A stretch of 50,290 bases of DNA from Escherichia phage JLBYU07, in sequence record OK272485.1, one strand, 5' to 3'. The notes beneath the pieces are model-generated. The model worked only from the letters and a program-made list of their open reading frames with translations, was not told where the DNA came from and made no database searches. Made by a program: the position numbers and the translations under genes. Below, piece by piece: positions 7,072 to 44,476 of this stretch (positions are counted from its first letter, which is position 1; the number at the start of each line of letters is the position of its first letter).

Positions 7072-7562
7072 TGAGCATAAAGAACATGGTAGCGGCGGCG
7101 GCCTTTGGCGTTGCGGTTGCCTTGACTTCTCCACTTCTTGAAGAGATCGAAGGGGTAAGATACAAGCCATACAAAGATATTGCGGGAGTATGGACGGTTT
7201 GCGCAGGAATCACCGGACCCGATGTTATCCTGGGGAAAACGTACACTAAAAAAGAGTGTGATGCTTTGTTGGCTAAGCATATCCAGGTTGCTAAAAAGGA
7301 AGTTGACAAGCAAGTTAAGGTTTACATTCCTGATAGTATGCGTGCAGCAATGTACTCATTCACTTACAATGCAGGTGTGGGAGCTTTCAGAAATTCAACA
7401 ATGCTGAAACTCATCAACCAGGGGAAATTAAACGAGGCTTGCGATCAGCTTTATCGTTGGGCTTATTACCATAACCCAAAAACAGGAAAGCGAGAGAAGT
7501 CTAAAGGCTTGCTTAACAGGCGCAAGGTCGAATACAAATATTGCACAATGGATCTTAAATGA
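7071..7562 (+). CDS. SAR endolysin (T4-lysozyme-like muramidase)
   Basis: 163 aa; N-terminal signal-anchor-release helix [14 protein letters not shown]; catalytic E-x8-D-x5-T ([19 protein letters not shown]). Confidence 0.75.
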
Positions 7563-7954
7563 TGAAGAAATTTTTACTTACACCAATCGCAATGGCGGTG
7601 ATCTTGTCTGGATGTTCAAGCGTTACGCCACTGACCGGATTAATCGGCAGTAAGCCGGAAATCACAGCGCAGGCTGGCGCGGAGAACGTGAAGCAGACAG
7701 TTGGCATTACAGCAAGGCAGGACGCCAGCACAAAACAGGAAACCACAATAAAGGAATCTGCGGTTGACAAGGTGGACACGTCCAGCAAGAAGGATTTCAC
7801 AACATCAACCATTCAGGCCAATACCATCAAGGCAGACAAAATTCAGGTCGTGCAGGGTAATAACGGCAGATGGTACGATCCAGTAATCATATGCGTGGTT
7901 GTGTTTCTTGTGCTGATTTGTCTTTACTGGATAGAAAAGAAAAAGGAGGCTTAA
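7559..7954 (+). CDS. unimolecular spanin (T1 gp11-type)
   Basis: 131 aa; lipobox LSGC after signal peptide plus C-terminal [20 protein letters not shown]; ATGA overlap with endolysin. Confidence 0.7.
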
Positions 7955-14753: not shown

Positions 14754-15025
14754 TACTTCTTGATCTCCTTACTGATAAATTTCAGCACCTGGCGCAAGAA
14801 AACTTCGTTGTTGATAGTCGCTGGCAATTCTTCTTTCACTTCTTGCGGCAGATAGATATTACCGTGCCAGGTCAAGCAATCGTAGTTAATACGATAAGAG
14901 CAAAGCCACTCGCAATCGTTATCTGCTTCCCATATGCAGAGTTGCAGAACATCGCCAAAATCTTCAACAGTCAGATCCAGACCGTGACGCTTAGCGAAAT
15001 TGAAAGTGGTTTTGCTGATGTTCAT
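14753..15025 (-). CDS. hypothetical protein (first gene of leftward early operon)
   Basis: 90 aa; AGGAG RBS; downstream of divergent control region. Confidence 0.5.
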   Translation of the reverse strand: MNISKTTFNFAKRHGLDLTVEDFGDVLQLCIWEADNDCEWLCSYRINYDCLTWHGNIYLPQEVKEELPATINNEVFLRQVLKFISKEIKK

Positions 15026-15084
15026 TTACTATCTCCTGAGCGGTTCGTTTCGATGTGTGTAATGTACCCGATCAGGTGGCCTGA

Positions 15085-15106
15085 GTTTTAACAAAAAGTG
15101 CTATTT
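15085..15106 (-). promoter_or_regulatory. conserved intergenic box copy (minus orientation)
   Basis: at head of leftward early operon, about 60 nt upstream of gene 14753-15025. Confidence 0.6.
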
Positions 15107-15134
15107 GACGGTTATCGCCAGGATTGCGATCGAA

Positions 15135-15212
15135 ATAATCAAAAGTAATCATTCGTAATCAAATCACGTCAAAATGATGATTGCCTTTGCAAATTTGATG
15201 AGAAAAGTAATC
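15135..15212. promoter_or_regulatory. cluster of TAATCA iteron-like repeats in divergent control region
   Basis: AGTAATCATTCGTAATCAAATCACG ... AGTAATCACGTTTAATCATTGG; four or more TAATCA units. Confidence 0.45.
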
Positions 15213-15659
15213 ACGTTTAATCATTGGTTGCAGGGGAGATAGTGAAACCTTCCCCTCTTGCCTCACTTTTCCGCCTGGCTGTCAGTGGTTGTTGTCTTTT
15301 GTTCACCCCTGTTACCGATTTCAGGCGGCGTGTTTCCGCGCGGTTTTCCGGTGTAGCGAAAACGGAAAAAACAAAAAAAATCCTATATAATACATTGAAA
15401 ATAAAGATTATTTATTTATATATATCTATAATGTTTTCTTTTTGTTCTCACTGTTACAGTGCTTTTTGTTGGGTGTGGTGTGGTTGTGTGTTGGTATATA
15501 TGGATAGTTGCGCGCGCGGCGGATTGCATATGTATATATACTTTTTCCGGCGGATTGCGTTAACAGCGCGAACAGAAAAATAACAGCCCTGAAATCAACA
15601 ACTTGCGCATGATTTTGTAGTTTTTCGATATTGGTAACGTTTTGAATACAACAAAAACA

Positions 15660-15687
15660 TTGACACGCACCAAATAGCTTTTATAAT
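15660..15687 (+). promoter_or_regulatory. near-consensus sigma70 promoter (TTGACA-N16-TATAAT)
   Basis: TTGACA at 15660-15665, TATAAT at 15682-15687; about 30 nt upstream of GGAGG RBS of gene 15719. Confidence 0.6.
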
Positions 15688-15718
15688 GCGCCAACAGTCA
15701 ACAACTGGAGGAAAGGAA

Positions 15719-16183
15719 ATGGAACAGAAGACCACTAAGGACTATTGCGATTGGCTTCGCGAGCTTGGTCGCCGCCTGGCTAGTGGCGATATTGAAGAGT
15801 ATAAAATGTCACTAATTGACCTGGCCGGAATGTTAAGCGGTGACGACTGCTACAAGATCACGCGCAGTTCATCCTACAGCCGGACCATTATCAACCGCGT
15901 TCCAGAAGTAAGGGCCGCAGGTCGGGTAAGCATCAAGGTAGAGGAAACGGAAGATGATAAATTTTACGTTTTCCGCATGGTCCGCGAATCGAAAAGGAAA
16001 ATCATCACGCCAGAAGAATTGCCAGCCATCAAGGCAAGGGCGATCAAAAAGTTTGCCGATCGCTTACTGGCAGCAATCCCGAATATCGTTGACCTGGAAG
16101 GGGATAAACTGGCTGGGGCTTGCGAGGGCGTAAGCCGCTACCAGGATATGATCCGCGAAATCATCAAAGAGGAAGAGCAATGA
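15719..16183 (+). CDS. hypothetical early protein
   Basis: 154 aa from ATG 15719 (GGAGG RBS); track start 15686 lies inside the -10 hexamer. Confidence 0.55.
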   Translation: MEQKTTKDYCDWLRELGRRLASGDIEEYKMSLIDLAGMLSGDDCYKITRSSSYSRTIINRVPEVRAAGRVSIKVEETEDDKFYVFRMVRESKRKIITPEELPAIKARAIKKFADRLLAAIPNIVDLEGDKLAGACEGVSRYQDMIREIIKEEEQ

Positions 16184-16452
16184 AAAAGGCATTAATCAGC
16201 GTTTTGGCGGCAATGGCATTCCTGACCGGATGCAAAGAAGATGGCGCGCATGTTGGCAATGTGCAGATGGCTAACCCTGGCGATGCCTACAGCGTAAGGG
16301 AGCTATTCACCGCTGACGGTTGCACCGTTTACCGATTCTATGACGATCGCACTGTTTACTTCACCAACTGCAAGGGCGCTACTAGCTGGGAAGTGTCGAA
16401 AAGCAATGGCAAAGGCACGAAGACAGAACATATGACCGTCGAAACAAAATAG
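16180..16452 (+). CDS. lipoprotein (candidate receptor-blocking superinfection-exclusion protein)
   Basis: 90 aa from ATG 16180; signal peptide plus lipobox LTGC; stop TAG in conserved box. Confidence 0.55.
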   Translation: MKKALISVLAAMAFLTGCKEDGAHVGNVQMANPGDAYSVRELFTADGCTVYRFYDDRTVYFTNCKGATSWEVSKSNGKGTKTEHMTVETK

Positions 16453-16468
16453 CACTTTTTGTTAAAAC
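16448..16468 (+). promoter_or_regulatory. conserved intergenic box AATAGCACTTTTTGTTAAAAC
   Basis: exact copy; TAG is stop of lipoprotein gene; ATAATA 23 nt after TTGTTA. Confidence 0.65.
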
Positions 16469-16469
16469 T

Positions 16470-16694
16470 CAAAAGCGATAACCAGGCATAATACACACAT
16501 AGACGGGCGGCAAGGATTGCTGCGGGAGAGGAGTAACGCAGGGGCTTGATCGAAGTGTCAGGATTCCCAACCGTGAGGCCAGAACTATCACACTAGCCAC
16601 CAGGCAGAACGCTAGATAGGTCACTGAGCTGAGGCTACCGACGAAGTGAAGCCCGTCACCAAAGATTAAACGGTTATTTATGTGAAAGGGGTTA
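16470..16694 (+). ncRNA. candidate structured non-coding RNA or long structured leader
   Basis: 225 nt with no ORF in any plus frame, GC-rich; long-range pairing GACGGGC (16502-16508) with GCCCGTC (16651-16657); internal hairpins CTGCG...CGCAG and CTAGC...GCTAG. Confidence 0.3.
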
Positions 16695-16877
16695 ATGATG
16701 GATAAGATCATCAAAATGAGCGAAGTCAAGCCGGGAATGATGGTTAAGTTTGCTGGCAAATATCGCCTAGTGCTGGATAACTGCCGCAAAGAGAACATTC
16801 TTACCATTCGTGTAAATGGCAAGGCGCAGCTATTCGCCCCTAGCTCAGATATTGACGTTGAAGTTAGAATTAAGTAA
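16695..16877 (+). CDS. hypothetical protein
   Basis: 60 aa; AAAGGGG RBS. Confidence 0.45.
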   Translation: MMDKIIKMSEVKPGMMVKFAGKYRLVLDNCRKENILTIRVNGKAQLFAPSSDIDVEVRIK

Positions 16878-16892
16878 TTAGGAGGAAACACC

Positions 16893-17786
16893 ATGTTAAA
16901 ACTTGCTGACATTAAATTCCCGATCACCTTCGAATCTCGCGGCATTGGTCATTACATTTTTACCGATGAAAAAACATGCCATAAGGTTGATTTGTATAGC
17001 TACAAGCGTGAGCCATCAAGCATGGAGATTGAACACTTCATTGATGCACATAACAAGCACTACAACGCACTTAAAGACTATGGCTACGCAATGCCAGGAT
17101 ATACCAGCTTCCACTACAAGCCATACAAGGGCCAGGTGTTACCAGTTCGCTCACCGGAACGCGCAGAGATTCCGATGGTCAATATGAAAACCTGCGACTA
17201 CAAAAAGCTGTGGTGCTTAAGTGTGGACAATATCAAGTATCCGATCACGTTCCACACAACTGGTAACTCAACGATTCGCTTCACATCACGCGACAATGGC
17301 GTTTATAGCGATGGTCAGAAATCAGAGTTGAAAGTTGATTTCTTTGTCAACGGTCACAACAAATTCAATCCGCACAACGAAGAGGATAAAGTGTATTACG
17401 TGGAAGACATTACAAAACACTTGTTTGGAGAAACTCCATTCGGCGGCGGGAAGACGGCAGTTCAGAAAATCATTGGCGAGGAGATCCACAAAGCGGCTGT
17501 CGAAATGAAAGCGCCTGGAGGCTGGCGTATTGACAAGAGCGCCTTTGCCTATCAAGAAATCGTAACGCAGGGCGCGATTGAAGATATGCCAGTTACAGCC
17601 ACGCTAAAAGGAGTCCGGCTTGATGACGGCAGTTGGTATGAATTAACGGCTACACCAAAGACGATCGAAATTCATGATGATGTTGTTATCCTTCTGCTTC
17701 ACTACGGCGGCACTAAAAACCGGACTGTTGCAGGTGAGATCAGCATCAAGCGCGGAACGATGGTTAAGTGGAAGGTGAAGATTTGA
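16893..17786 (+). CDS. hypothetical protein with internal tandem domain duplication
   Basis: 297 aa; AGGAGG RBS; two related ~100-aa segments (ADIKFPITFESRGIGHYIFT / DNIKYPITFHTTGNSTIRFT; HFIDAHNKHYN / FFVNGHNKFNP). Confidence 0.55.
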   Translation: MLKLADIKFPITFESRGIGHYIFTDEKTCHKVDLYSYKREPSSMEIEHFIDAHNKHYNALKDYGYAMPGYTSFHYKPYKGQVLPVRSPERAEIPMVNMKTCDYKKLWCLSVDNIKYPITFHTTGNSTIRFTSRDNGVYSDGQKSELKVDFFVNGHNKFNPHNEEDKVYYVEDITKHLFGETPFGGGKTAVQKIIGEEIHKAAVEMKAPGGWRIDKSAFAYQEIVTQGAIEDMPVTATLKGVRLDDGSWYELTATPKTIEIHDDVVILLLHYGGTKNRTVAGEISIKRGTMVKWKVKI

Positions 17787-39578: not shown

Positions 39579-39601
39579 ACCCGCCTTGCGCGGGTTTTTT
39601 T
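39579..39601 (+). terminator. rho-independent terminator
   Basis: hairpin ACCCGCCTTGCGCGGGT followed by T7. Confidence 0.7.
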
Positions 39602-39650
39602 GTGCCTTTATAATGTTCAAACCAAGAAACAGCACAAAAGGTTAAAAGTC

Positions 39651-42600
39651 ATGGCTAAATATATGATAAGCGGCAGTAAGGGCGGAAGCAAAAAGCCATA
39701 CGTGCCAAAAGAGATGGAAGATAACCTGATCTCGATAAACAAGATTAAAGTTTTGCTGGCTGTATCTGATGGCGAGTGCGATCCAGATTTCACGTTGCGT
39801 GATCTTTATCTTGATGATGTTCCTGTTATTGCCAGCGATGGCACTGTTAACTATGAGGGTGTAACGGCTGAATATAGGCCAGGCACACAGACGCAAGATT
39901 ACATCCAAGGGTTTACTGACACATCAAGCGAGGTGACAGTTTCGCGAGATATTACAACAGACAATCCCTATATTATCTCTGTGACAAACAAAAATCTTTC
40001 TGCAATCAGAATCAAGATTCTGATGCCAGTTGGCATGAAGCAGGAGGATAACGGCGATCTTGTTGGCGTAAGGGTTCAATATGCCGTAGATATGGCTGTT
40101 GATGGCGGTTCTTATAACGAGGTTATGAGAGATGTAATTGACGGCAAGACGAGATCAGGATATGACCGCAGCAGAAGGATTGATCTTCCTAAGTTTGAGG
40201 AGCGCGTTTTAATCAGAGTCAAGCGACTGACTCCAGACAGCACACCTTCAAAGGTGACTGATAAAATCAAACTGCAAAGTTACGCTGAGGTTGTGGATGC
40301 AAAATTCCGTTATCCTCTGACTGGACTTGTATTCGTAGAATTTGACAGCGAATTGTTTCCTACGCAAATCCCTAACATTTCTATAAAAAAGAAATGGAAG
40401 ATTATTAATGTTCCAAGCAACTATGATCCAATATCAAGAAAATATCACGGGTCATGGGATGGGACTTTTAAAAAAGCGTGGTCAAATAATCCTGCTTGGG
40501 TTCTTTATGATCTGGTAACGAATCAGCGTTATGGGCTTGACCAGCGAGAGTTAGGAATACAGATCGACAAGTGGAGCTTATACGAGGCTGGCGTTTACTG
40601 TGATCAGAAAGTTCCAGACGGTAAGGGCGGTACAGAGCCTCGCTACCTATGCGATGTAGTTATCCAGAATCAGGTTGAGGCTTATCAGCTAATCCGTGAC
40701 ATTTGCTCAATCTTTCGCGGAATGAGCTTTTGGAATGGTGAGAGTTTATCAATCGTGATTGATAAGCCGCGCGATCCATCATACGTGTTTACTAATGAAA
40801 ACGTCATCAACGGTGATTTTCAGTACACAACCGCAAGCGAAAAAAGCATGTACACGCAGTGTAACGTGACGTTTGACGACGAACAAAACATGTATCAGCA
40901 GGACGTAGAGGGGGTTTTTGATACTGAGGCTGCATTACGATTTGGATACAATCCAACAAGCATTACAGCGATCGGGTGCACACGCAGGAGCGAAGCGAAT
41001 CGTCGCGGTAGGTGGGTTTTGAAAACAAACCTTAGAAGCACTACTGTAAACTTTGCTACCGGACTAGAGGGGATGATTCCATCAATAGGTGATGTGATTG
41101 CTATCGCTGATAATTTTCAGAGCAGCAACCTAACGTTAAACCTATCGGGCCGAGTGATGGAAGTTTCAGGATTGCAGGTTTTCGTTCCGTTTAAGGTTGA
41201 TGCTCGTCCTGGTGATTTTATTATCATCAACAAGCCGGACGGCAAGCCAGTTAAGCGCACGATCTCAAAGGTTAGCGCAGACGGAAAAACCATTGAGTTA
41301 AATATTGGATTTGGTTTTGATGTTAAGCCTGACACTGTTTTTGCGATTGACCGTACTGACCTTGCGTTGCAGCAATACGTTGTGACAACTATCAGCAAGG
41401 GTGATGACGAAAACGAGTTTACCTATTCAATCACGGCTGTAGAGTACGATCCGAACAAATACGACGAGATTGATTATGGCGTAAACATTGATGACAGACC
41501 AACTTCAATTGTTCAGCCTGACGTGATGGTAGCGCCGGAGAACGTGCAGATCTCATCTTATTCTCGCGTCGTGCAGGGCGTTAGCGTTGAGACTATGGTT
41601 GTTTCATGGGATAAGGTTCCTTACGCATCTCTTTATGAAATGCAGTGGCGAAAAGGTGATGGCAACTGGCTGAATACGCCGCAGACAGCTAACAAAGAGA
41701 TAGAGGTAGAAGGAATTTATTCAGGGAACTATCAAGTAAGGGTTAGATCTGTTTCTGCAAGCGGTAACACCTCCCCGTGGTCAAAGATTGCAACCGCCAC
41801 CCTGACAGGTAAAGTTGGCGAGCCAGGAGCGCCGATTAATCTTACAGCTTCTGATAATGAAGTTTTTGGCATTCGTGTCAAATGGGGTATGCCGGAAGGA
41901 TCAGGCGATACGGCTTACATTGAGCTTCACCAATCTCCAGACGGAACGGTTGAAAACTCAAGCCTGCTTACGCTGATTCCATATCCTCAATATGAGTATT
42001 GGCATAGCACGTTACCAGCGGGTCAAGTTGTATGGTATAGAATCCGTAGCGTTGACAGGATCGGCAACGTTTCCGGCTGGACTGACTTTGTTCGTGGCAT
42101 GGCGTCAGATGATGTTGAATCTGTTTTAGGCGACATTCTGGACAAGATTTTTGATACCGAAGCGGGTCAAGAAATCAAAGAGAACGCCATAGACAGTGCC
42201 AACAAAATCAAAGACCAAGCGCAATCAATCATCCAGAACGCATTAGCAAACGATGCTGATGTGAAGTGGACGCGAGTACAAAACGGAAAGCGTAAGGCTG
42301 AATATGGTCATGCTCTTGAGCTTATCGCCAACGAAACTGAGGCGCGCGTAACTCAAATCGAAGAGTTAAGGGCGTCAATTGATGAAGATATAGTTTCAAG
42401 TATCAAAACCGTTCAGGAAGCGATTGCCAACGAATCAGAGACGCGAGCTACTCAAGTTCAGCAGCTTGATTCTAAATTTACGAAGGAAATAGACGGCGTA
42501 AAACGAGATACGGCTGCAAGTATTGGTGAGGTAAGGCAAACCATTACCAATGAATCAGAAGCGCGCGCTCAGGCCGTTCAGCAGCTTGACGCTAAGTTCA

Positions 42601-43229
42601 CGAAAGAGATAAACGACCTTGACGGAGTTATCAAAACAGAAGTCGAGGCTAACATCTCAGAAGTGAAACAGGCGATCGCCAATGAGACAGAGGCAAGGGT
42701 TCAGGCTGACCAGGCTTTAACAGCTAAATTCGGAGACGTTGAATCAGCACTAGCAGAAAAACTTGATTCGTGGGCTAACGTTGATTCGGTTGGCGCTAAG
42801 TACGCTATGAAATTGGGCCTTACTTACAATGGGCAGAAGTACAGCGCAGGAATGGTAATGCAGCTATCGCAATCGTCGCAGGGGTTGATCTCACAAATCC
42901 TTTTCGATGCTAACCGATTTGCAATTATGACCAGTTCGTCAGGTGGCGTTTACACATTGCCGTTTGTAGTAGAAAATAACCAGGTTTTTATCAACAGTTT
43001 GTTGGTGAAAAACGGGTCCATTACTAACGCAATGATTGGCAACGTTATTCAGTCAAATAACTTTGTTCAGAATCAGCAAGGATGGAGGCTTGATAAAAAT
43101 GGTAACTTTGAGAACTACGGAACTAGAGCGGGAGAAGGAGCTACAAAATTCACTAACGAAGGCTTAAAGGTGAAAGATGCAAATGGACGATTGAGAGTTG
43201 AGATAGGGAGAATAACCGGAAGTTGGTAA
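39651..43229 (+). CDS. tail tip host-specificity protein (lambda J-like central fibre)
   Basis: 1192 aa from ATG 39651; size and position after I; four ~35-aa tandem repeats IANE[ST]E[AT]R...Q[QE]L near C-terminus. Confidence 0.85.
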   Translation: MAKYMISGSKGGSKKPYVPKEMEDNLISINKIKVLLAVSDGECDPDFTLRDLYLDDVPVIASDGTVNYEGVTAEYRPGTQTQDYIQGFTDTSSEVTVSRDITTDNPYIISVTNKNLSAIRIKILMPVGMKQEDNGDLVGVRVQYAVDMAVDGGSYNEVMRDVIDGKTRSGYDRSRRIDLPKFEERVLIRVKRLTPDSTPSKVTDKIKLQSYAEVVDAKFRYPLTGLVFVEFDSELFPTQIPNISIKKKWKIINVPSNYDPISRKYHGSWDGTFKKAWSNNPAWVLYDLVTNQRYGLDQRELGIQIDKWSLYEAGVYCDQKVPDGKGGTEPRYLCDVVIQNQVEAYQLIRDICSIFRGMSFWNGESLSIVIDKPRDPSYVFTNENVINGDFQYTTASEKSMYTQCNVTFDDEQNMYQQDVEGVFDTEAALRFGYNPTSITAIGCTRRSEANRRGRWVLKTNLRSTTVNFATGLEGMIPSIGDVIAIADNFQSSNLTLNLSGRVMEVSGLQVFVPFKVDARPGDFIIINKPDGKPVKRTISKVSADGKTIELNIGFGFDVKPDTVFAIDRTDLALQQYVVTTISKGDDENEFTYSITAVEYDPNKYDEIDYGVNIDDRPTSIVQPDVMVAPENVQISSYSRVVQGVSVETMVVSWDKVPYASLYEMQWRKGDGNWLNTPQTANKEIEVEGIYSGNYQVRVRSVSASGNTSPWSKIATATLTGKVGEPGAPINLTASDNEVFGIRVKWGMPEGSGDTAYIELHQSPDGTVENSSLLTLIPYPQYEYWHSTLPAGQVVWYRIRSVDRIGNVSGWTDFVRGMASDDVESVLGDILDKIFDTEAGQEIKENAIDSANKIKDQAQSIIQNALANDADVKWTRVQNGKRKAEYGHALELIANETEARVTQIEELRASIDEDIVSSIKTVQEAIANESETRATQVQQLDSKFTKEIDGVKRDTAASIGEVRQTITNESEARAQAVQQLDAKFTKEINDLDGVIKTEVEANISEVKQAIANETEARVQADQALTAKFGDVESALAEKLDSWANVDSVGAKYAMKLGLTYNGQKYSAGMVMQLSQSSQGLISQILFDANRFAIMTSSSGGVYTLPFVVENNQVFINSLLVKNGSITNAMIGNVIQSNNFVQNQQGWRLDKNGNFENYGTRAGEGATKFTNEGLKVKDANGRLRVEIGRITGSW
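42324..42780 (+). repeat. four tandem ~105-bp coding repeats in J C-terminal region
   Basis: repeated GCCAA[CT]GA[AG]... units encoding IANETEARVTQ / IANESETRATQ / ITNESEARAQA / IANETEARVQA. Confidence 0.7.
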
Positions 43230-43235
43230 AAAAAA

Positions 43236-43253
43236 GGGGGCATAGCCCCCTTT
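43236..43253. terminator. bidirectional rho-independent terminator
   Basis: hairpin GGGGGCATAGCCCCC with A8 upstream and T-run downstream, between convergent J and minus-strand operon. Confidence 0.7.
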
Positions 43254-43257
43254 AATT

Positions 43258-43872
43258 TTAATCATAGTGTGATGAATTTATAACCAAAACAGATGAAGCC
43301 GTGTAAATACCAACAGGACCAGAAGTTTGTGCAACCTGCCTAGATAAAGAATATACCCCGTTGCCATACGCGGCAGCTTGAGACTCAAATATCATGAATC
43401 CACCTAAAGACGGATTACGCACAGAGTTTAAAGCTGTTAGTGATGGCATGATGGCGCAAGGGTATCCCAAGTTAACGTCAAAAGTGATCCCGCTTACAGA
43501 TACAAGTTTTGCATCTAAAGGCTTCATCTTTCCATGATAAACCATCTCACCATTAGCATTATAAAAAGCTATTCCGTGACTACCAGGAGGAGTAACAATA
43601 TTGCTAAAAGCATAAACAAATACCTCACCTTGATTGTCGGACTTTTCTATCTTTATTGCGTGCTTACCACCATTATTAAATTGAGTAAATGCTATGTATG
43701 ATTTTGATGTTAACCTTACAAAAAAGAAGCACGGTCTATTTATTGGTATAGAAGTATTAAAAACGGTTCCTGTTTTTGCTGATATTTTACCTTTATCTAT
43801 AAGGTTAACAGGAGTGAAATCTGGACTTAACCACAATGATCCGTCTGGTTTTTTTATGCTCATCCCGTACAT
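43258..43872 (-). CDS. hypothetical protein (lipoprotein operon)
   Basis: 204 aa from ATG 43872 (GGGGG RBS), 1 nt after stop of upstream gene. Confidence 0.5.
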   Translation of the reverse strand: MYGMSIKKPDGSLWLSPDFTPVNLIDKGKISAKTGTVFNTSIPINRPCFFFVRLTSKSYIAFTQFNNGGKHAIKIEKSDNQGEVFVYAFSNIVTPPGSHGIAFYNANGEMVYHGKMKPLDAKLVSVSGITFDVNLGYPCAIMPSLTALNSVRNPSLGGFMIFESQAAAYGNGVYSLSRQVAQTSGPVGIYTASSVLVINSSHYD

Positions 43873-43874
43873 TA

Positions 43875-44153
43875 TTACCCCCAAAAAGTATATATATATC
43901 TTGAGTCAGATCCAGAAAGTCCGCTCCATGTAACGGTATCACCACTTACACCTAAACTTGGAGCGCCTGGATCGCCTCCGCGCCACGAACTCATTCCAAC
44001 ATATATTGCTTTCAACGACTTACCTGGCGGCCTGTTTGAGTAGGTCTTACTGCCAGATGATTGAGTAAATTTATCCAAGAAAAAAACTGGAGTTAAAAGG
44101 CCAGTAACATTTCTACCTTGCTCATCATATATTGCATACCCATATTCAGCCAT
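43875..44153 (-). CDS. hypothetical protein (lipoprotein operon)
   Basis: 92 aa; overlaps end of lipoprotein gene. Confidence 0.5.
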   Translation of the reverse strand: MAEYGYAIYDEQGRNVTGLLTPVFFLDKFTQSSGSKTYSNRPPGKSLKAIYVGMSSWRGGDPGAPSLGVSGDTVTWSGLSGSDSRYIYTFWG

Positions 44154-44421
44154 TTTTGCACCTCAAATCAATGAATTTTCTTTCATCTTGCCAACGGTTG
44201 ATAAATTTAACTTCTTTATTGTCAACGCTCAACCTGTATTGCTTTTGGCTGAATCTGTTTTCGCGGACCGCATTAATTTTAACTTCATGGAATCCGTTAA
44301 CAGGGAATGTTTTAACGTTAAATTTTGCCGTGCAATCGATCTCCTTGAAGTTGCCAGTAGGCGAAGAAGAACATCCGGTCAGAGCGGCTACGGTGGCTAT
44401 AACTGCGATTAATTTTTTCAT
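44146..44421 (-). CDS. lipoprotein (candidate Cor/Llp-like superinfection-exclusion protein)
   Basis: 91 aa from ATG 44421 (AGGAG RBS); signal peptide MKKLIAVIATVAALTGC with lipobox. Confidence 0.55.
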   Translation of the reverse strand: MKKLIAVIATVAALTGCSSSPTGNFKEIDCTAKFNVKTFPVNGFHEVKINAVRENRFSQKQYRLSVDNKEVKFINRWQDERKFIDLRCKNG

Positions 44422-44476
44422 CTTCAATACTCCTTAGTTGTTGTTGACTGTAACTATACACGATCCGGCAAGCCGA

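What the first reader, a model, noticed from the sequence alone, without database searches (positions are those of the whole stretch)
16180..16452. Early lipoprotein, candidate receptor-blocking exclusion factor
Seen in sequence: 90-aa protein with signal peptide and lipobox (AMAFLTGC) encoded second in the rightward early operon driven by the consensus promoter. Established knowledge: T5 Llp and T1/phi80 Cor are small lipoproteins that inactivate the phage receptor. Inference: this is one of two such candidates in the genome.
Basis: partly seen in the sequence, partly recalled or inferred. Interest (0 to 1): 0.45.

Follow-up and report, generated by a model that had tools for sequence, protein, structure and literature searches.

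The report
Early phage lipoprotein of unknown function
The gene is a real, probably early-expressed small lipoprotein of a T1-like coliphage, but it belongs to a widespread uncharacterised phage family (DUF4884) that is unrelated to the known receptor-blocking lipoproteins and does not track receptor choice, so its role is probably something else in the cell envelope.

Summary
Observation confirmed. ORF 16180-16452 (+) encodes a 90-aa protein with a textbook lipoprotein signal peptide (lipobox LTGC, Cys18, Lys at +2). It is the second gene behind a 12/12 sigma-70 consensus promoter (15660-15687) and overlaps the upstream DUF7174 gene by ATGA.

Interpretation only partly supported. The mature domain shows no sequence or fold similarity to T5 Llp, T1 Cor, the window's own RBP-cassette lipoprotein (44146-44421) or Rtp45; only the signal peptides align. 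It belongs to Pfam DUF4884 / phrog_6360, a large family (1,771 clusters at 50% identity) of stand-alone lipoproteins in very diverse phages and prophages. These genes have no conserved neighbour and none sits next to a recognisable tail or receptor-binding gene.

Alleles are decoupled from receptor. BtuB-specific FritzSarasin and FhuA-specific PeterMerian share a 98.6% identical mature protein. JLBYU26 has an RBP cassette 100% identical to the window's but a mature domain only 44% identical. Homology breakpoints show the mature domain was exchanged as a cassette behind a retained signal peptide.

Best reading: a periplasm-facing, outer-membrane-anchored accessory factor acting on something other than the phage's own receptor, possibly heterotypic exclusion. 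Function is untested. The sequence is already catalogued; interest is moderate-low.

The parts
15660..15687 (+). Sigma-70 consensus promoter (TTGACA, 16-nt spacer, TATAAT) driving the rightward operon
   Evidence: 12/12 matches, the only hit in 15000-17000; sequence
15719..16183 (+). First gene of the operon, a DUF7174 protein (154 aa, no signal peptide). Its stop overlaps the lipoprotein start (ATGA).
   Evidence: PF23796, E 3.2e-51; phrog_4841. The alternative ATG at 15686 lies inside the -10 hexamer. FritzSarasin is annotated from the 15719-equivalent start.
16180..16452 (+). DUF4884-family prolipoprotein gene (90 aa plus stop): the finding
   Evidence: PF16225, 29.2 bits, E 7.7e-7; phrog_6360, E 5.9e-9
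16180..16230 (+). Signal peptide (aa 1-17), including lipobox residues L15-T16-G17. It is retained at 96-97% DNA identity in phages that carry a different mature domain.
   Evidence: homology with FritzSarasin/JLBYU26 runs from 15483 to 16236
16231..16449 (+). Mature domain (Cys18 to Lys90): linker aa 19-39, then a predicted 5-stranded antiparallel beta-meander (40-45, 48-54, 58-62, 66-75, 80-89). It is the exchangeable cassette.
   Evidence: pLDDT 87.5; breakpoints near 16236 and 16447; 42-44% identity to allele B
16297..16371 (+). Conserved family core, aa 40-64 (RELFTADGCTVYRFYDDRTVYFTNC), with near-invariant L42 F43 G47 C48 Y51 R52 F53 D55 Y60 C64. C48 and C64 are a candidate periplasmic disulfide.
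   Evidence: invariant columns; the disulfide itself is inferred

Best explanation
The gene encodes a DUF4884-family prolipoprotein. It is transcribed by host RNA polymerase from a consensus promoter soon after infection and is probably translationally coupled to the upstream DUF7174 gene. The product should be exported by Sec, lipidated at Cys18, cleaved by signal peptidase II and carried by Lol to the inner leaflet of the outer membrane. There a roughly 70-residue, probably disulfide-stabilised beta-sheet domain would face the periplasm. It is a stand-alone accessory ('moron-like') gene, and its mature domain is exchanged between closely related phages as a cassette behind a constant signal peptide. 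It most likely acts on an envelope component or an incoming competitor, not on the phage's own terminal receptor. The most probable role is receptor-independent (heterotypic) superinfection exclusion or envelope protection at a post-adsorption, periplasmic step. The phage's cognate receptor blocker, if it has one, is the RBP-cassette lipoprotein at 44146-44421. Shown: ORF, lipobox, promoter pattern, family membership, distribution, decoupling from receptor, cassette exchange. Inferred: early timing, lipidation, outer-membrane location, disulfide, and the exclusion or protection role.
For: Lipoprotein features and promoter. Family: Pfam DUF4884 E 7.7e-7; 144 of 146 aligned relatives hit DUF4884; 1,771 clusters at 50% identity at E<=1e-3; 153 of 169 retrieved proteins have a lipobox and only 8 of those 153 have Asp at +2. 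Phage-borne and stand-alone: homologues lie in contigs of 4-358 kb, in Drexlerviridae, in Serratia, Erwinia, Pantoea, Pseudomonas and Xanthomonas phages, and in a Pseudomonas chromosomal region with phage-type genes (RT, C5-methylase, NinX). There is no conserved neighbour (at most 7 of 86 loci). Flanking genes with a Pfam match are of DNA-metabolism or nin type, never tail or RBP. Accessory status: absent from T1, present in Rtp. Decoupling from receptor: the mature allele of FritzSarasin (BtuB) is 98.6% identical to PeterMerian (FhuA) and 97.1% to JakobBernoulli (FhuA). JLBYU26 has an RBP cassette 100% identical to the window's but a mature domain only 44% identical. tunus-type phages share the gene at 99.3% DNA identity but have an RBP cassette only 86.4-86.6% identical. 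Cassette exchange: 96-97% DNA identity from 15483 to 16236, then only about 75% over the core, resuming at 16447. Precedent for early periplasmic exclusion that does not target the receptor: T4 Spackle (PMC7677548, listed).
Against: No experiment or publication addresses this family; full-text searches found only annotation mentions. The fold has no informative structural neighbour, so no mechanism can be read from structure. The strongly conserved core could reflect folding constraints rather than a conserved ligand. FhuA and BtuB are both TonB-dependent transporters, so sharing one allele does not exclude a generic transporter or TonB blocker. Early expression, lipidation and localisation are unverified. 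The receptor of the window phage itself is not known.
Confidence: 0.4

Rival explanations
1. Cognate receptor blocker. Like T5 Llp, T1 Cor or Rtp45, the lipoprotein binds the periplasmic face of the phage's own outer-membrane receptor and prevents RBP binding. This would exclude homotypic superinfection and protect progeny from cell debris.
For: It is a small outer-membrane-type lipoprotein behind a strong host-type promoter. All well-characterised non-lysis lipoproteins of E. coli siphophages act this way (PMC9586334; PMC12685063, read as its preprint; PMC13164509).
Against: There is no homology beyond the signal peptide to Llp, Cor, the window's Cor-position protein or Rtp45, and no fold match although Llp is in the PDB. 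The gene is not linked to an RBP here or in 86 other loci. The same allele occurs in BtuB and FhuA phages, and different alleles occur with an identical RBP cassette. Rtp and the window each already carry an RBP-linked lipoprotein. The family also occurs in 68-kb Serratia phages named as myophages (vB_SmaM_Hera, MyoSmar) and in a 200-kb Xanthomonas phage.
Confidence: 0.1
2. Generic blocker of the TonB-dependent uptake system. The conserved core binds a feature common to TonB-dependent transporters or TonB itself. This would shut entry of the many phages and colicins that use this route, whichever transporter they bind.
For: One allele serves both FhuA- and BtuB-specific phages. The core is highly conserved across hosts that all have TonB systems.
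Against: Homologues occur in LptD-specific phages (Rtp, JeanPiccard). They also occur in 68-kb Serratia phages named as myophages and in large (93-200 kb) Pseudomonas and Xanthomonas phages, where self-protection through TonB-dependent transporters is not an obvious need, although their receptors were not looked up here. The three or more divergent mature alleles within one phage family are unexplained by an invariant target. There is no direct evidence.
Confidence: 0.1
3. Envelope housekeeping or counter-defence. The lipoprotein modulates a host envelope process during infection, for example outer-membrane-peptidoglycan tethering, vesiculation, envelope-stress signalling, lysis timing, or an envelope-located host or prophage defence. 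It would not exclude other phages.
For: It is a stand-alone accessory gene in early or nin-type regions of very different phages. The core is conserved across host genera, which suits a conserved host target.
Against: It is not in the lysis cassette; the u-spanin is at 7562-7954. It has no PADLOC hit. It is absent from T1, so it is dispensable for the basic cycle. Allelic cassette exchange within one species looks more like a specificity arms race than housekeeping.
Confidence: 0.2
4. Host-benefit moron. Like lambda Bor (from memory), the lipoprotein would change host surface properties such as serum or bacteriocin resistance or adhesion. Virulent phages would carry it as a passenger.
For: Homologues sit in the nin-like region of a Pseudomonas chromosomal locus with phage-type genes.
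Against: Most homologous loci are in virulent-type phage genomes: Drexlerviridae and large phage contigs carrying RNA ligase or NAMPT genes. There are no copies in 5,426 complete E. coli genomes by DNA search, and none in plasmids. Placement behind a strong early promoter in a lytic phage argues for a role during infection.
Confidence: 0.08

Closest known systems
T5 Llp (lytic conversion lipoprotein; PDB 8A60 chain B, 7QJF)
   Same: A small (77 vs 90 aa) phage-encoded prolipoprotein with a classical lipobox, expressed from its own or an early promoter, and presumably anchored in the outer membrane facing the periplasm.
   Different: No similarity in the mature domain (BLASTP found none; hhalign aligns only 20 signal-peptide columns). 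No fold match. llp lies next to the RBP gene (from memory; not checked here) and is specific for FhuA, whereas this gene is unlinked to the RBP and its alleles ignore receptor type.
Cor (T1 ST30, phi80, N15) and the cor cassette downstream of gpJ
   Same: A lipoprotein of a T1-like phage of similar size.
   Different: The Cor position in this window is occupied by another gene, 44146-44421(-). That gene hits phrog_1119 (E 2e-6) and is flanked by phrog_557 and phrog_425 membrane proteins. The finding does not hit phrog_1119, and its profile matches the Cor profiles only in the signal peptide. T1 has Cor but no DUF4884 gene.
Rtp45 / SE_Oeko (LptDE-binding superinfection-exclusion lipoproteins, PMC12685063)
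   Same: A small lipoprotein of a Drexlerviridae phage with a disulfide-containing mature domain.
   Different: There is no homology. Rtp45 is encoded next to RBP gene rtp44, whereas the Rtp homologue of the finding is rtp3 in the left-end early region. Rtp therefore has both.
T4 Spackle (Sp), an early periplasmic exclusion protein that inhibits the gp5 lysozyme of incoming phage (PMC7677548)
   Same: A possible functional analogy: an early-made periplasmic accessory protein that acts after adsorption and independently of the receptor.
   Different: Spackle is not a lipoprotein and shows no detected similarity. This is a mechanistic lead only and was not tested.
Pfam DUF4884 (PF16225) / phrog_6360
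   Same: This is the family the protein belongs to. It shares the core motif LFTxDGCTVYRFxD...YFTNC and the N-terminal lipobox.
   Different: The window protein scores 29.2 bits, 0.8 below the Pfam gathering threshold. Like about a quarter of the retrieved members, it lacks the second Cys pair (SCGKxC) of the majority. No function is known for the family.

Membership tests
Bacterial lipoprotein precursor (Lgt/LspA substrate) | N-terminal signal peptide with a basic n-region and hydrophobic h-region ending in a lipobox [LVI][ASTVI][GAS]C | tested here: met
   MKK-ALISVLAAMAF-LTGC, Cys18. The lipobox is conserved in 153 of 169 retrieved proteins.
Bacterial lipoprotein precursor (Lgt/LspA substrate) | Actual diacylglyceryl modification and signal peptidase II cleavage; outer-membrane localisation | not testable with these tools
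   Lys at +2 (not Asp) predicts Lol-dependent outer-membrane sorting by the E. coli +2 rule (established knowledge). Confirmation needs palmitate labelling, globomycin treatment and membrane fractionation.
Pfam DUF4884 (PF16225) | Score at or above the curated gathering threshold (30 bits) | tested here: inconclusive
   29.2 bits, E 7.7e-7, just under the cut-off. However, 144 of 146 aligned relatives match DUF4884, and GenBank annotates the 95.6%-identical JLBYU16 protein as DUF4884.
Pfam DUF4884 (PF16225) | Conserved core LFTxDGCTVYRFxD...YFTNC with the Cys48/Cys64 pair | tested here: met
   Alignments A1 and A2; hmmsearch of the A2 profile against window ORFs gives 95.6 bits.
T5 Llp family | Sequence homology of the mature domain | tested here: not met
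   BLASTP finds no alignment. hhalign aligns only signal-peptide columns 1-20. The Llp sequence used was verified as 100% identical to X75922.
T5 Llp family | Fold similarity to Llp (8A60_B, 7QJF_A) | tested here: not met
T5 Llp family | Binds FhuA and abolishes pb5 binding | not testable with these tools
   Requires a binding or exclusion assay.
Cor family / cor cassette | Sequence homology to Cor (phrog_1119; T1 ST30) | tested here: not met
   No phrog_1119 hit at E<=0.01. hhalign against T1 Cor and against the window's Cor-position family aligns only the signal peptide. BLASTP against the window's Cor-position protein gives E 0.022 with a gapped, low-quality alignment.
Cor family / cor cassette | Location immediately downstream of the gpJ tail-tip gene with the membrane-protein partners | tested here: not met
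   gpJ is at 39600-43229, and the cassette at 43258-44421(-) holds phrog_425, phrog_557 and a lipoprotein. The finding is more than 20 kb away.
Receptor-cognate exclusion lipoproteins in general (Llp, Cor, Rtp45) | The allele co-varies with the RBP and receptor type | tested here: not met
   BtuB phage FritzSarasin and FhuA phage PeterMerian share a 98.6% identical mature protein. JLBYU26 has an RBP cassette 100% identical to the window's but a mature domain only 44% identical.
Rtp45 / SE_Oeko family | Sequence homology | tested here: not met
   hhalign probability 32% over 18 signal-peptide columns. Rtp carries both rtp45 and the DUF4884 gene rtp3.
Spanins (Rz1 / u-spanin) | Lysis-cassette location and spanin profile match | tested here: not met
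   The finding has no spanin hit. The window's u-spanin is 7562-7954 (phrog_1804, E 4e-46).

The most novel reading that the evidence does not exclude
DUF4884 lipoproteins would be a previously unrecognised, very widespread class of phage envelope effectors with a fold not represented in the PDB. A constant signal-peptide/lipobox 'handle' would carry an exchangeable mature domain whose alleles set the specificity of a receptor-independent, periplasmic block. The target could be incoming competitor phages or an envelope-based host defence. This would be a second, modular layer of exclusion alongside the RBP-linked Cor, Llp and Rtp45 system.
Probability: 0.25. Interest if true: 0.65.

Novelty: already known. 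Interest (0 to 1): 0.33.

Why it matters
Small phage lipoproteins are routinely annotated by analogy as Cor/Llp-type receptor blockers. This case shows the analogy fails for a family with well over a thousand sequence clusters. That family is carried by many virulent phages, including BASEL collection members and therapy-type coliphages. The data give a concrete, cheap experiment. Alleles A and B occur in otherwise near-identical phages: tonnikala versus FritzSarasin, and the window phage versus JLBYU26, which share an identical RBP cassette. Swapping or expressing the alleles should reveal what specificity they encode. If the family proves to be a receptor-independent exclusion or envelope factor, it would add a new layer to phage-phage competition and would matter for designing phage cocktails. 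If no phenotype is found, it remains an ordinary hypothetical accessory gene.

Tried and rejected
- WD40 hits: phmmer of the protein against PDB sequences gave WD40-repeat hits with E down to 5e-17. This is an artefact of summing 8-14 individually insignificant repeat matches (each i-Evalue above 200), and they vanish with the family profile.
- Lipoprotein_15: the Pfam PF03640 hit (E 0.0056) is below threshold and is matched by only 2 of 146 relatives. Rejected.
- NCBIfam: hits to the SA0632, entericidin, EexN and LptM families all cover only residues 1-20, the signal peptide.
- PADLOC: nothing.
- Structure: the first AlphaFold model from 21 sequences was unusable (pLDDT 58). The 146-sequence alignment fixed this. 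The afdb50 fold library was unavailable. BFVD returned only other DUF4884 or 'Lipoprotein' phage proteins.
- Conserved partner gene: a search in 86 loci found none.
- Domain fusions: the longer family members look like mis-called starts with an internal signal peptide.
- Other collections: no copies in E. coli genomes by DNA search and none in plasmids by protein search.
- Literature: searches for DUF4884, and for Drexlerviridae with lipoprotein and early genes, found no functional study.
- Downstream spacer: the 242-nt region after the gene has no tRNA, no Rfam match and no excess fold stability (z = +1.0).
- PHROG Cor caution: the Cor profile (phrog_1119) also hits the u-spanin at E 1e-5. 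Weak hits to it are partly driven by the signal peptide and should not be over-read.

Full report
**What is there.** The window is a roughly 50-kb T1-like coliphage genome (Drexlerviridae, Tempevirinae, Warwickvirus). The 1.1-kb region around the finding is 98.5-98.7% identical to phages JLBYU16, swan01 and tunus. ORF 16180-16452 (+) encodes 90 aa beginning MKKALISVLAAMAFLTGC. This is a canonical prolipoprotein signal peptide with lipobox L-T-G-C and Lys at +2. By the E. coli +2 rule (established knowledge), that predicts Lol-mediated sorting to the outer membrane.

The ATG has a GAGGA Shine-Dalgarno and overlaps the stop of the upstream gene (ATGA). That upstream gene is a cytoplasmic-looking DUF7174 protein (15719-16183). 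A perfect TTGACA-16-TATAAT promoter lies at 15660-15687 and is the only consensus hit in 2 kb. 'Early' remains an inference from the promoter type and the gene's context.

A strict lipobox scan found two ORFs. A looser scan added a third at 7562-7954, the u-spanin (phrog_1804, E 4e-46).

**Family.** The protein matches Pfam DUF4884 (29.2 bits, E 7.7e-7, gathering threshold 30) and phrog_6360, which has no known function. A word-indexed search found 20 clusters. An exhaustive profile search found 1,771 clusters at 50% identity with E<=1e-3, and 720 with E<=1e-10. Of 146 aligned relatives, 144 hit DUF4884.

The family consists of 77-100-aa lipoproteins. A lipobox is present in 153 of 169 retrieved proteins, and only 8 of those 153 have Asp at +2. 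The core is strongly conserved: LFTxDGCTVYRFxD...YFTNC. Most members have four Cys after the lipid Cys. The window protein, like about a quarter of the retrieved members, keeps only the near-invariant C48/C64 pair.

**Is it Llp/Cor-like?** No detectable homology.
- T5 Llp (sequence verified 100% against X75922; present in the PDB as 8A60_B and 7QJF_A) gives no BLASTP alignment.
- Profile comparisons with Llp, T1 Cor, the family of the window's own RBP-cassette lipoprotein, and Rtp45 align only the signal peptide and lipobox.
- The Cor position in this genome, downstream of gpJ (39600-43229), is occupied by a three-gene minus-strand cassette: lipoprotein 44146-44421 (phrog_1119 'Cor', E 2e-6), phrog_557 'outer membrane protein', and phrog_425 'membrane associated protein'.
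- That Cor assignment is itself partly positional. The lipoprotein matches T1 Cor only over the N-terminal 33 residues, and the spanin also hits phrog_1119 at E 1e-5.

**Context and distribution.** Homologues lie in very different phages:
- other Drexlerviridae, including Rtp (rtp3) and four BASEL phages;
- 68-kb Serratia and Erwinia phages, and Pantoea phages;
- a 93-kb Pseudomonas phage and a 200-kb Xanthomonas phage;
- metagenomic phage contigs of 4-358 kb;
- Pseudomonas chromosomes; one locus examined sits among a reverse transcriptase, a C5-methylase and a NinX homologue, which I read as prophage-like.

In 86 loci no neighbouring gene family is shared by more than 7 loci. Among 150 immediately flanking proteins, the few with Pfam hits are of early or DNA-metabolism type: NinG, RdgC, ASCH, ParB_N, HNH and GTP cyclohydrolase I. 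None is a tail or RBP protein. T1 itself lacks the gene, so it is accessory. No copies were found in 5,426 complete E. coli genomes or in plasmids.

**Decoupling from the receptor.** Terminal receptors from the BASEL S5 table (PMC8594841) are LptD for JeanPiccard, BtuB for FritzSarasin, and FhuA for PeterMerian and JakobBernoulli. Mature-domain identities are:

| Comparison | Mature-domain identity |
|---|---|
| FritzSarasin vs PeterMerian | 98.6% |
| FritzSarasin vs JakobBernoulli | 97.1% |
| FritzSarasin vs JLBYU26 | 100% |
| FritzSarasin/JLBYU26 vs the LptD pair (Rtp, JeanPiccard) | 58-59% |
| PeterMerian/JakobBernoulli vs the LptD pair | 56-58% |
| Window vs all of the above | 42-44% |

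Conversely, the window's RBP cassette (43230-44450) is 100% identical in JLBYU26 and 99.1% in vB_EcoS-95, yet those phages carry the other allele (49.5% and 47.3% full-length identity). Phages with 99.3% identical DUF4884 DNA (tunus, ExeQuayColi) have an RBP cassette only 86.4-86.6% identical.

Phage Rtp encodes both Rtp45 and rtp3. Rtp45 is RBP-linked and has been shown structurally to block LptDE (PMC12685063; read as the preprint; locus). rtp3 is the DUF4884 homologue. A cognate receptor blocker would be expected to co-vary with the RBP module, and this gene does not.

**Cassette exchange.** Against FritzSarasin and JLBYU26, the window is 96-97% identical from 15483 to 16236. That stretch covers the promoter, the DUF7174 gene and the signal peptide through the lipid Cys. 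Only the core (16303-16382) then aligns, at about 75%. Similarity resumes at 16447-16515, around the stop codon. The mature domain has therefore been replaced precisely, behind a retained export and lipidation signal.

This replacement occurs even within one ICTV species. FritzSarasin is classified as Warwickvirus tonnikala, yet tonnikala carries the window's allele at 97.1% DNA identity. Such modular allele turnover suggests that the mature domain encodes a specificity under diversifying pressure.

**Mechanism.** Shown: the ORF, lipobox and promoter pattern; family membership; stand-alone phage-borne distribution; independence from RBP and receptor; and the domain swap. Inferred: early expression, lipidation, outer-membrane anchoring facing the periplasm, and a C48-C64 disulfide.

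My best-supported reading (confidence 0.4) is an envelope-acting accessory factor whose target is not the phage's own receptor. The most plausible role is a receptor-independent, post-adsorption exclusion or protection function, analogous in logic to T4 Spackle (PMC7677548). That analogy is a lead, not a test.

Rivals, with confidence:
- cognate receptor blocker, 0.10;
- generic blocker of TonB-dependent transporters or TonB, 0.10. This would explain the allele shared by FhuA and BtuB phages, but not its presence in LptD phages and in large phages that look unrelated to TonB-dependent entry;
- envelope housekeeping or counter-defence, 0.20;
- host-benefit moron, 0.08.

No literature on the family's function was found.

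**Verdict.** The feature is real and correctly described. The functional analogy to Llp and Cor is not supported by homology, fold, synteny or co-variation. The sequence is already in public databases, 98.9% identical at the protein level to tunus, SECphi27 and SLUR29 and annotated as hypothetical or DUF4884. It is therefore not new as an object, and its function is simply unknown. The decoupling from receptor and the mature-domain cassette exchange make it a reasonable, inexpensive experimental target, but nothing here is very surprising. Interest 0.33.

Noticed in passing
window 43258-44421 (-), downstream of gpJ at 39600-43229: A three-gene RBP/exclusion-type cassette: lipoprotein 44146-44421 (phrog_1119 'Cor', E 2e-6), 43875-44153 (phrog_557, outer membrane protein) and 43258-43884 (phrog_425, membrane-associated protein). 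It is 100% identical in JLBYU26 and 86.7% identical to BtuB-specific FritzSarasin. The lipoprotein resembles T1 Cor only in its first 33 residues or so. All three genes are on the minus strand, unlike in T1.
   Followed up: partly
window 7562-7954 (+): A third lipobox ORF (130 aa, [18 protein letters not shown]...) is the u-spanin (phrog_1804, E 4e-46). It also hits the PHROG 'Cor' profile at E 1e-5, which shows that weak phrog_1119 hits are largely driven by the signal peptide.
   Followed up: yes
window 16453-16694: A 242-nt non-coding spacer follows the lipoprotein gene. FritzSarasin and JLBYU26 have two 61-aa genes at this position. In tunus, XY3 and ExeQuayColi the match to window 15600-16700 is split into two pieces spanning about 460 bp more than the query, so they carry an insertion somewhere in that interval (not localised). 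Only the first 60 nt or so (to 16515) are conserved across alleles. No tRNA, no Rfam hit, and fold z = +1.0.
   Followed up: yes
window 15686-15721: GenBank records differ in the start of the upstream DUF7174 gene. The 15686 ATG, used for example in JLBYU16, lies inside the -10 hexamer of the consensus promoter. The 15719 ATG, with a GGAGG Shine-Dalgarno and as annotated in FritzSarasin, is the more likely start.
   Followed up: partly
P0003 (84 aa, 46-kb contig) and phage EC195 (ON185588): Two apparently disrupted copies of the allele. P0003 matches residues 1-39 closely and then diverges, which looks like a frameshift. In EC195 the match stops at residue 84 (251 of 273 nt). These are either sequencing errors or natural loss of function, and the latter would bear on dispensability.
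   Followed up: no
phage database hits: Seven to eleven 'Campylobacter phage' records of 49,946 bp (E6, C4, A139 and others) match this T1-like coliphage region and carry a DUF4884 gene. Their host labels look doubtful.
   Followed up: no
L016 2414-7183 (Pseudomonas sp. NUPR-001 chromosome): This DUF4884 homologue lies among a reverse transcriptase (RVT_1), a C5 cytosine methylase and a NinX homologue, with a host queD-like gene about 2.3 kb downstream of it. It may be a prophage accessory island carrying a retron-like RT.
   Followed up: partly
L007 and the P0006 contig: In two large-phage contexts the DUF4884 gene lies one to five genes from a Lar-like restriction-alleviation gene (PF14354), within long runs of small early genes. 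This was not seen generally.
   Followed up: no
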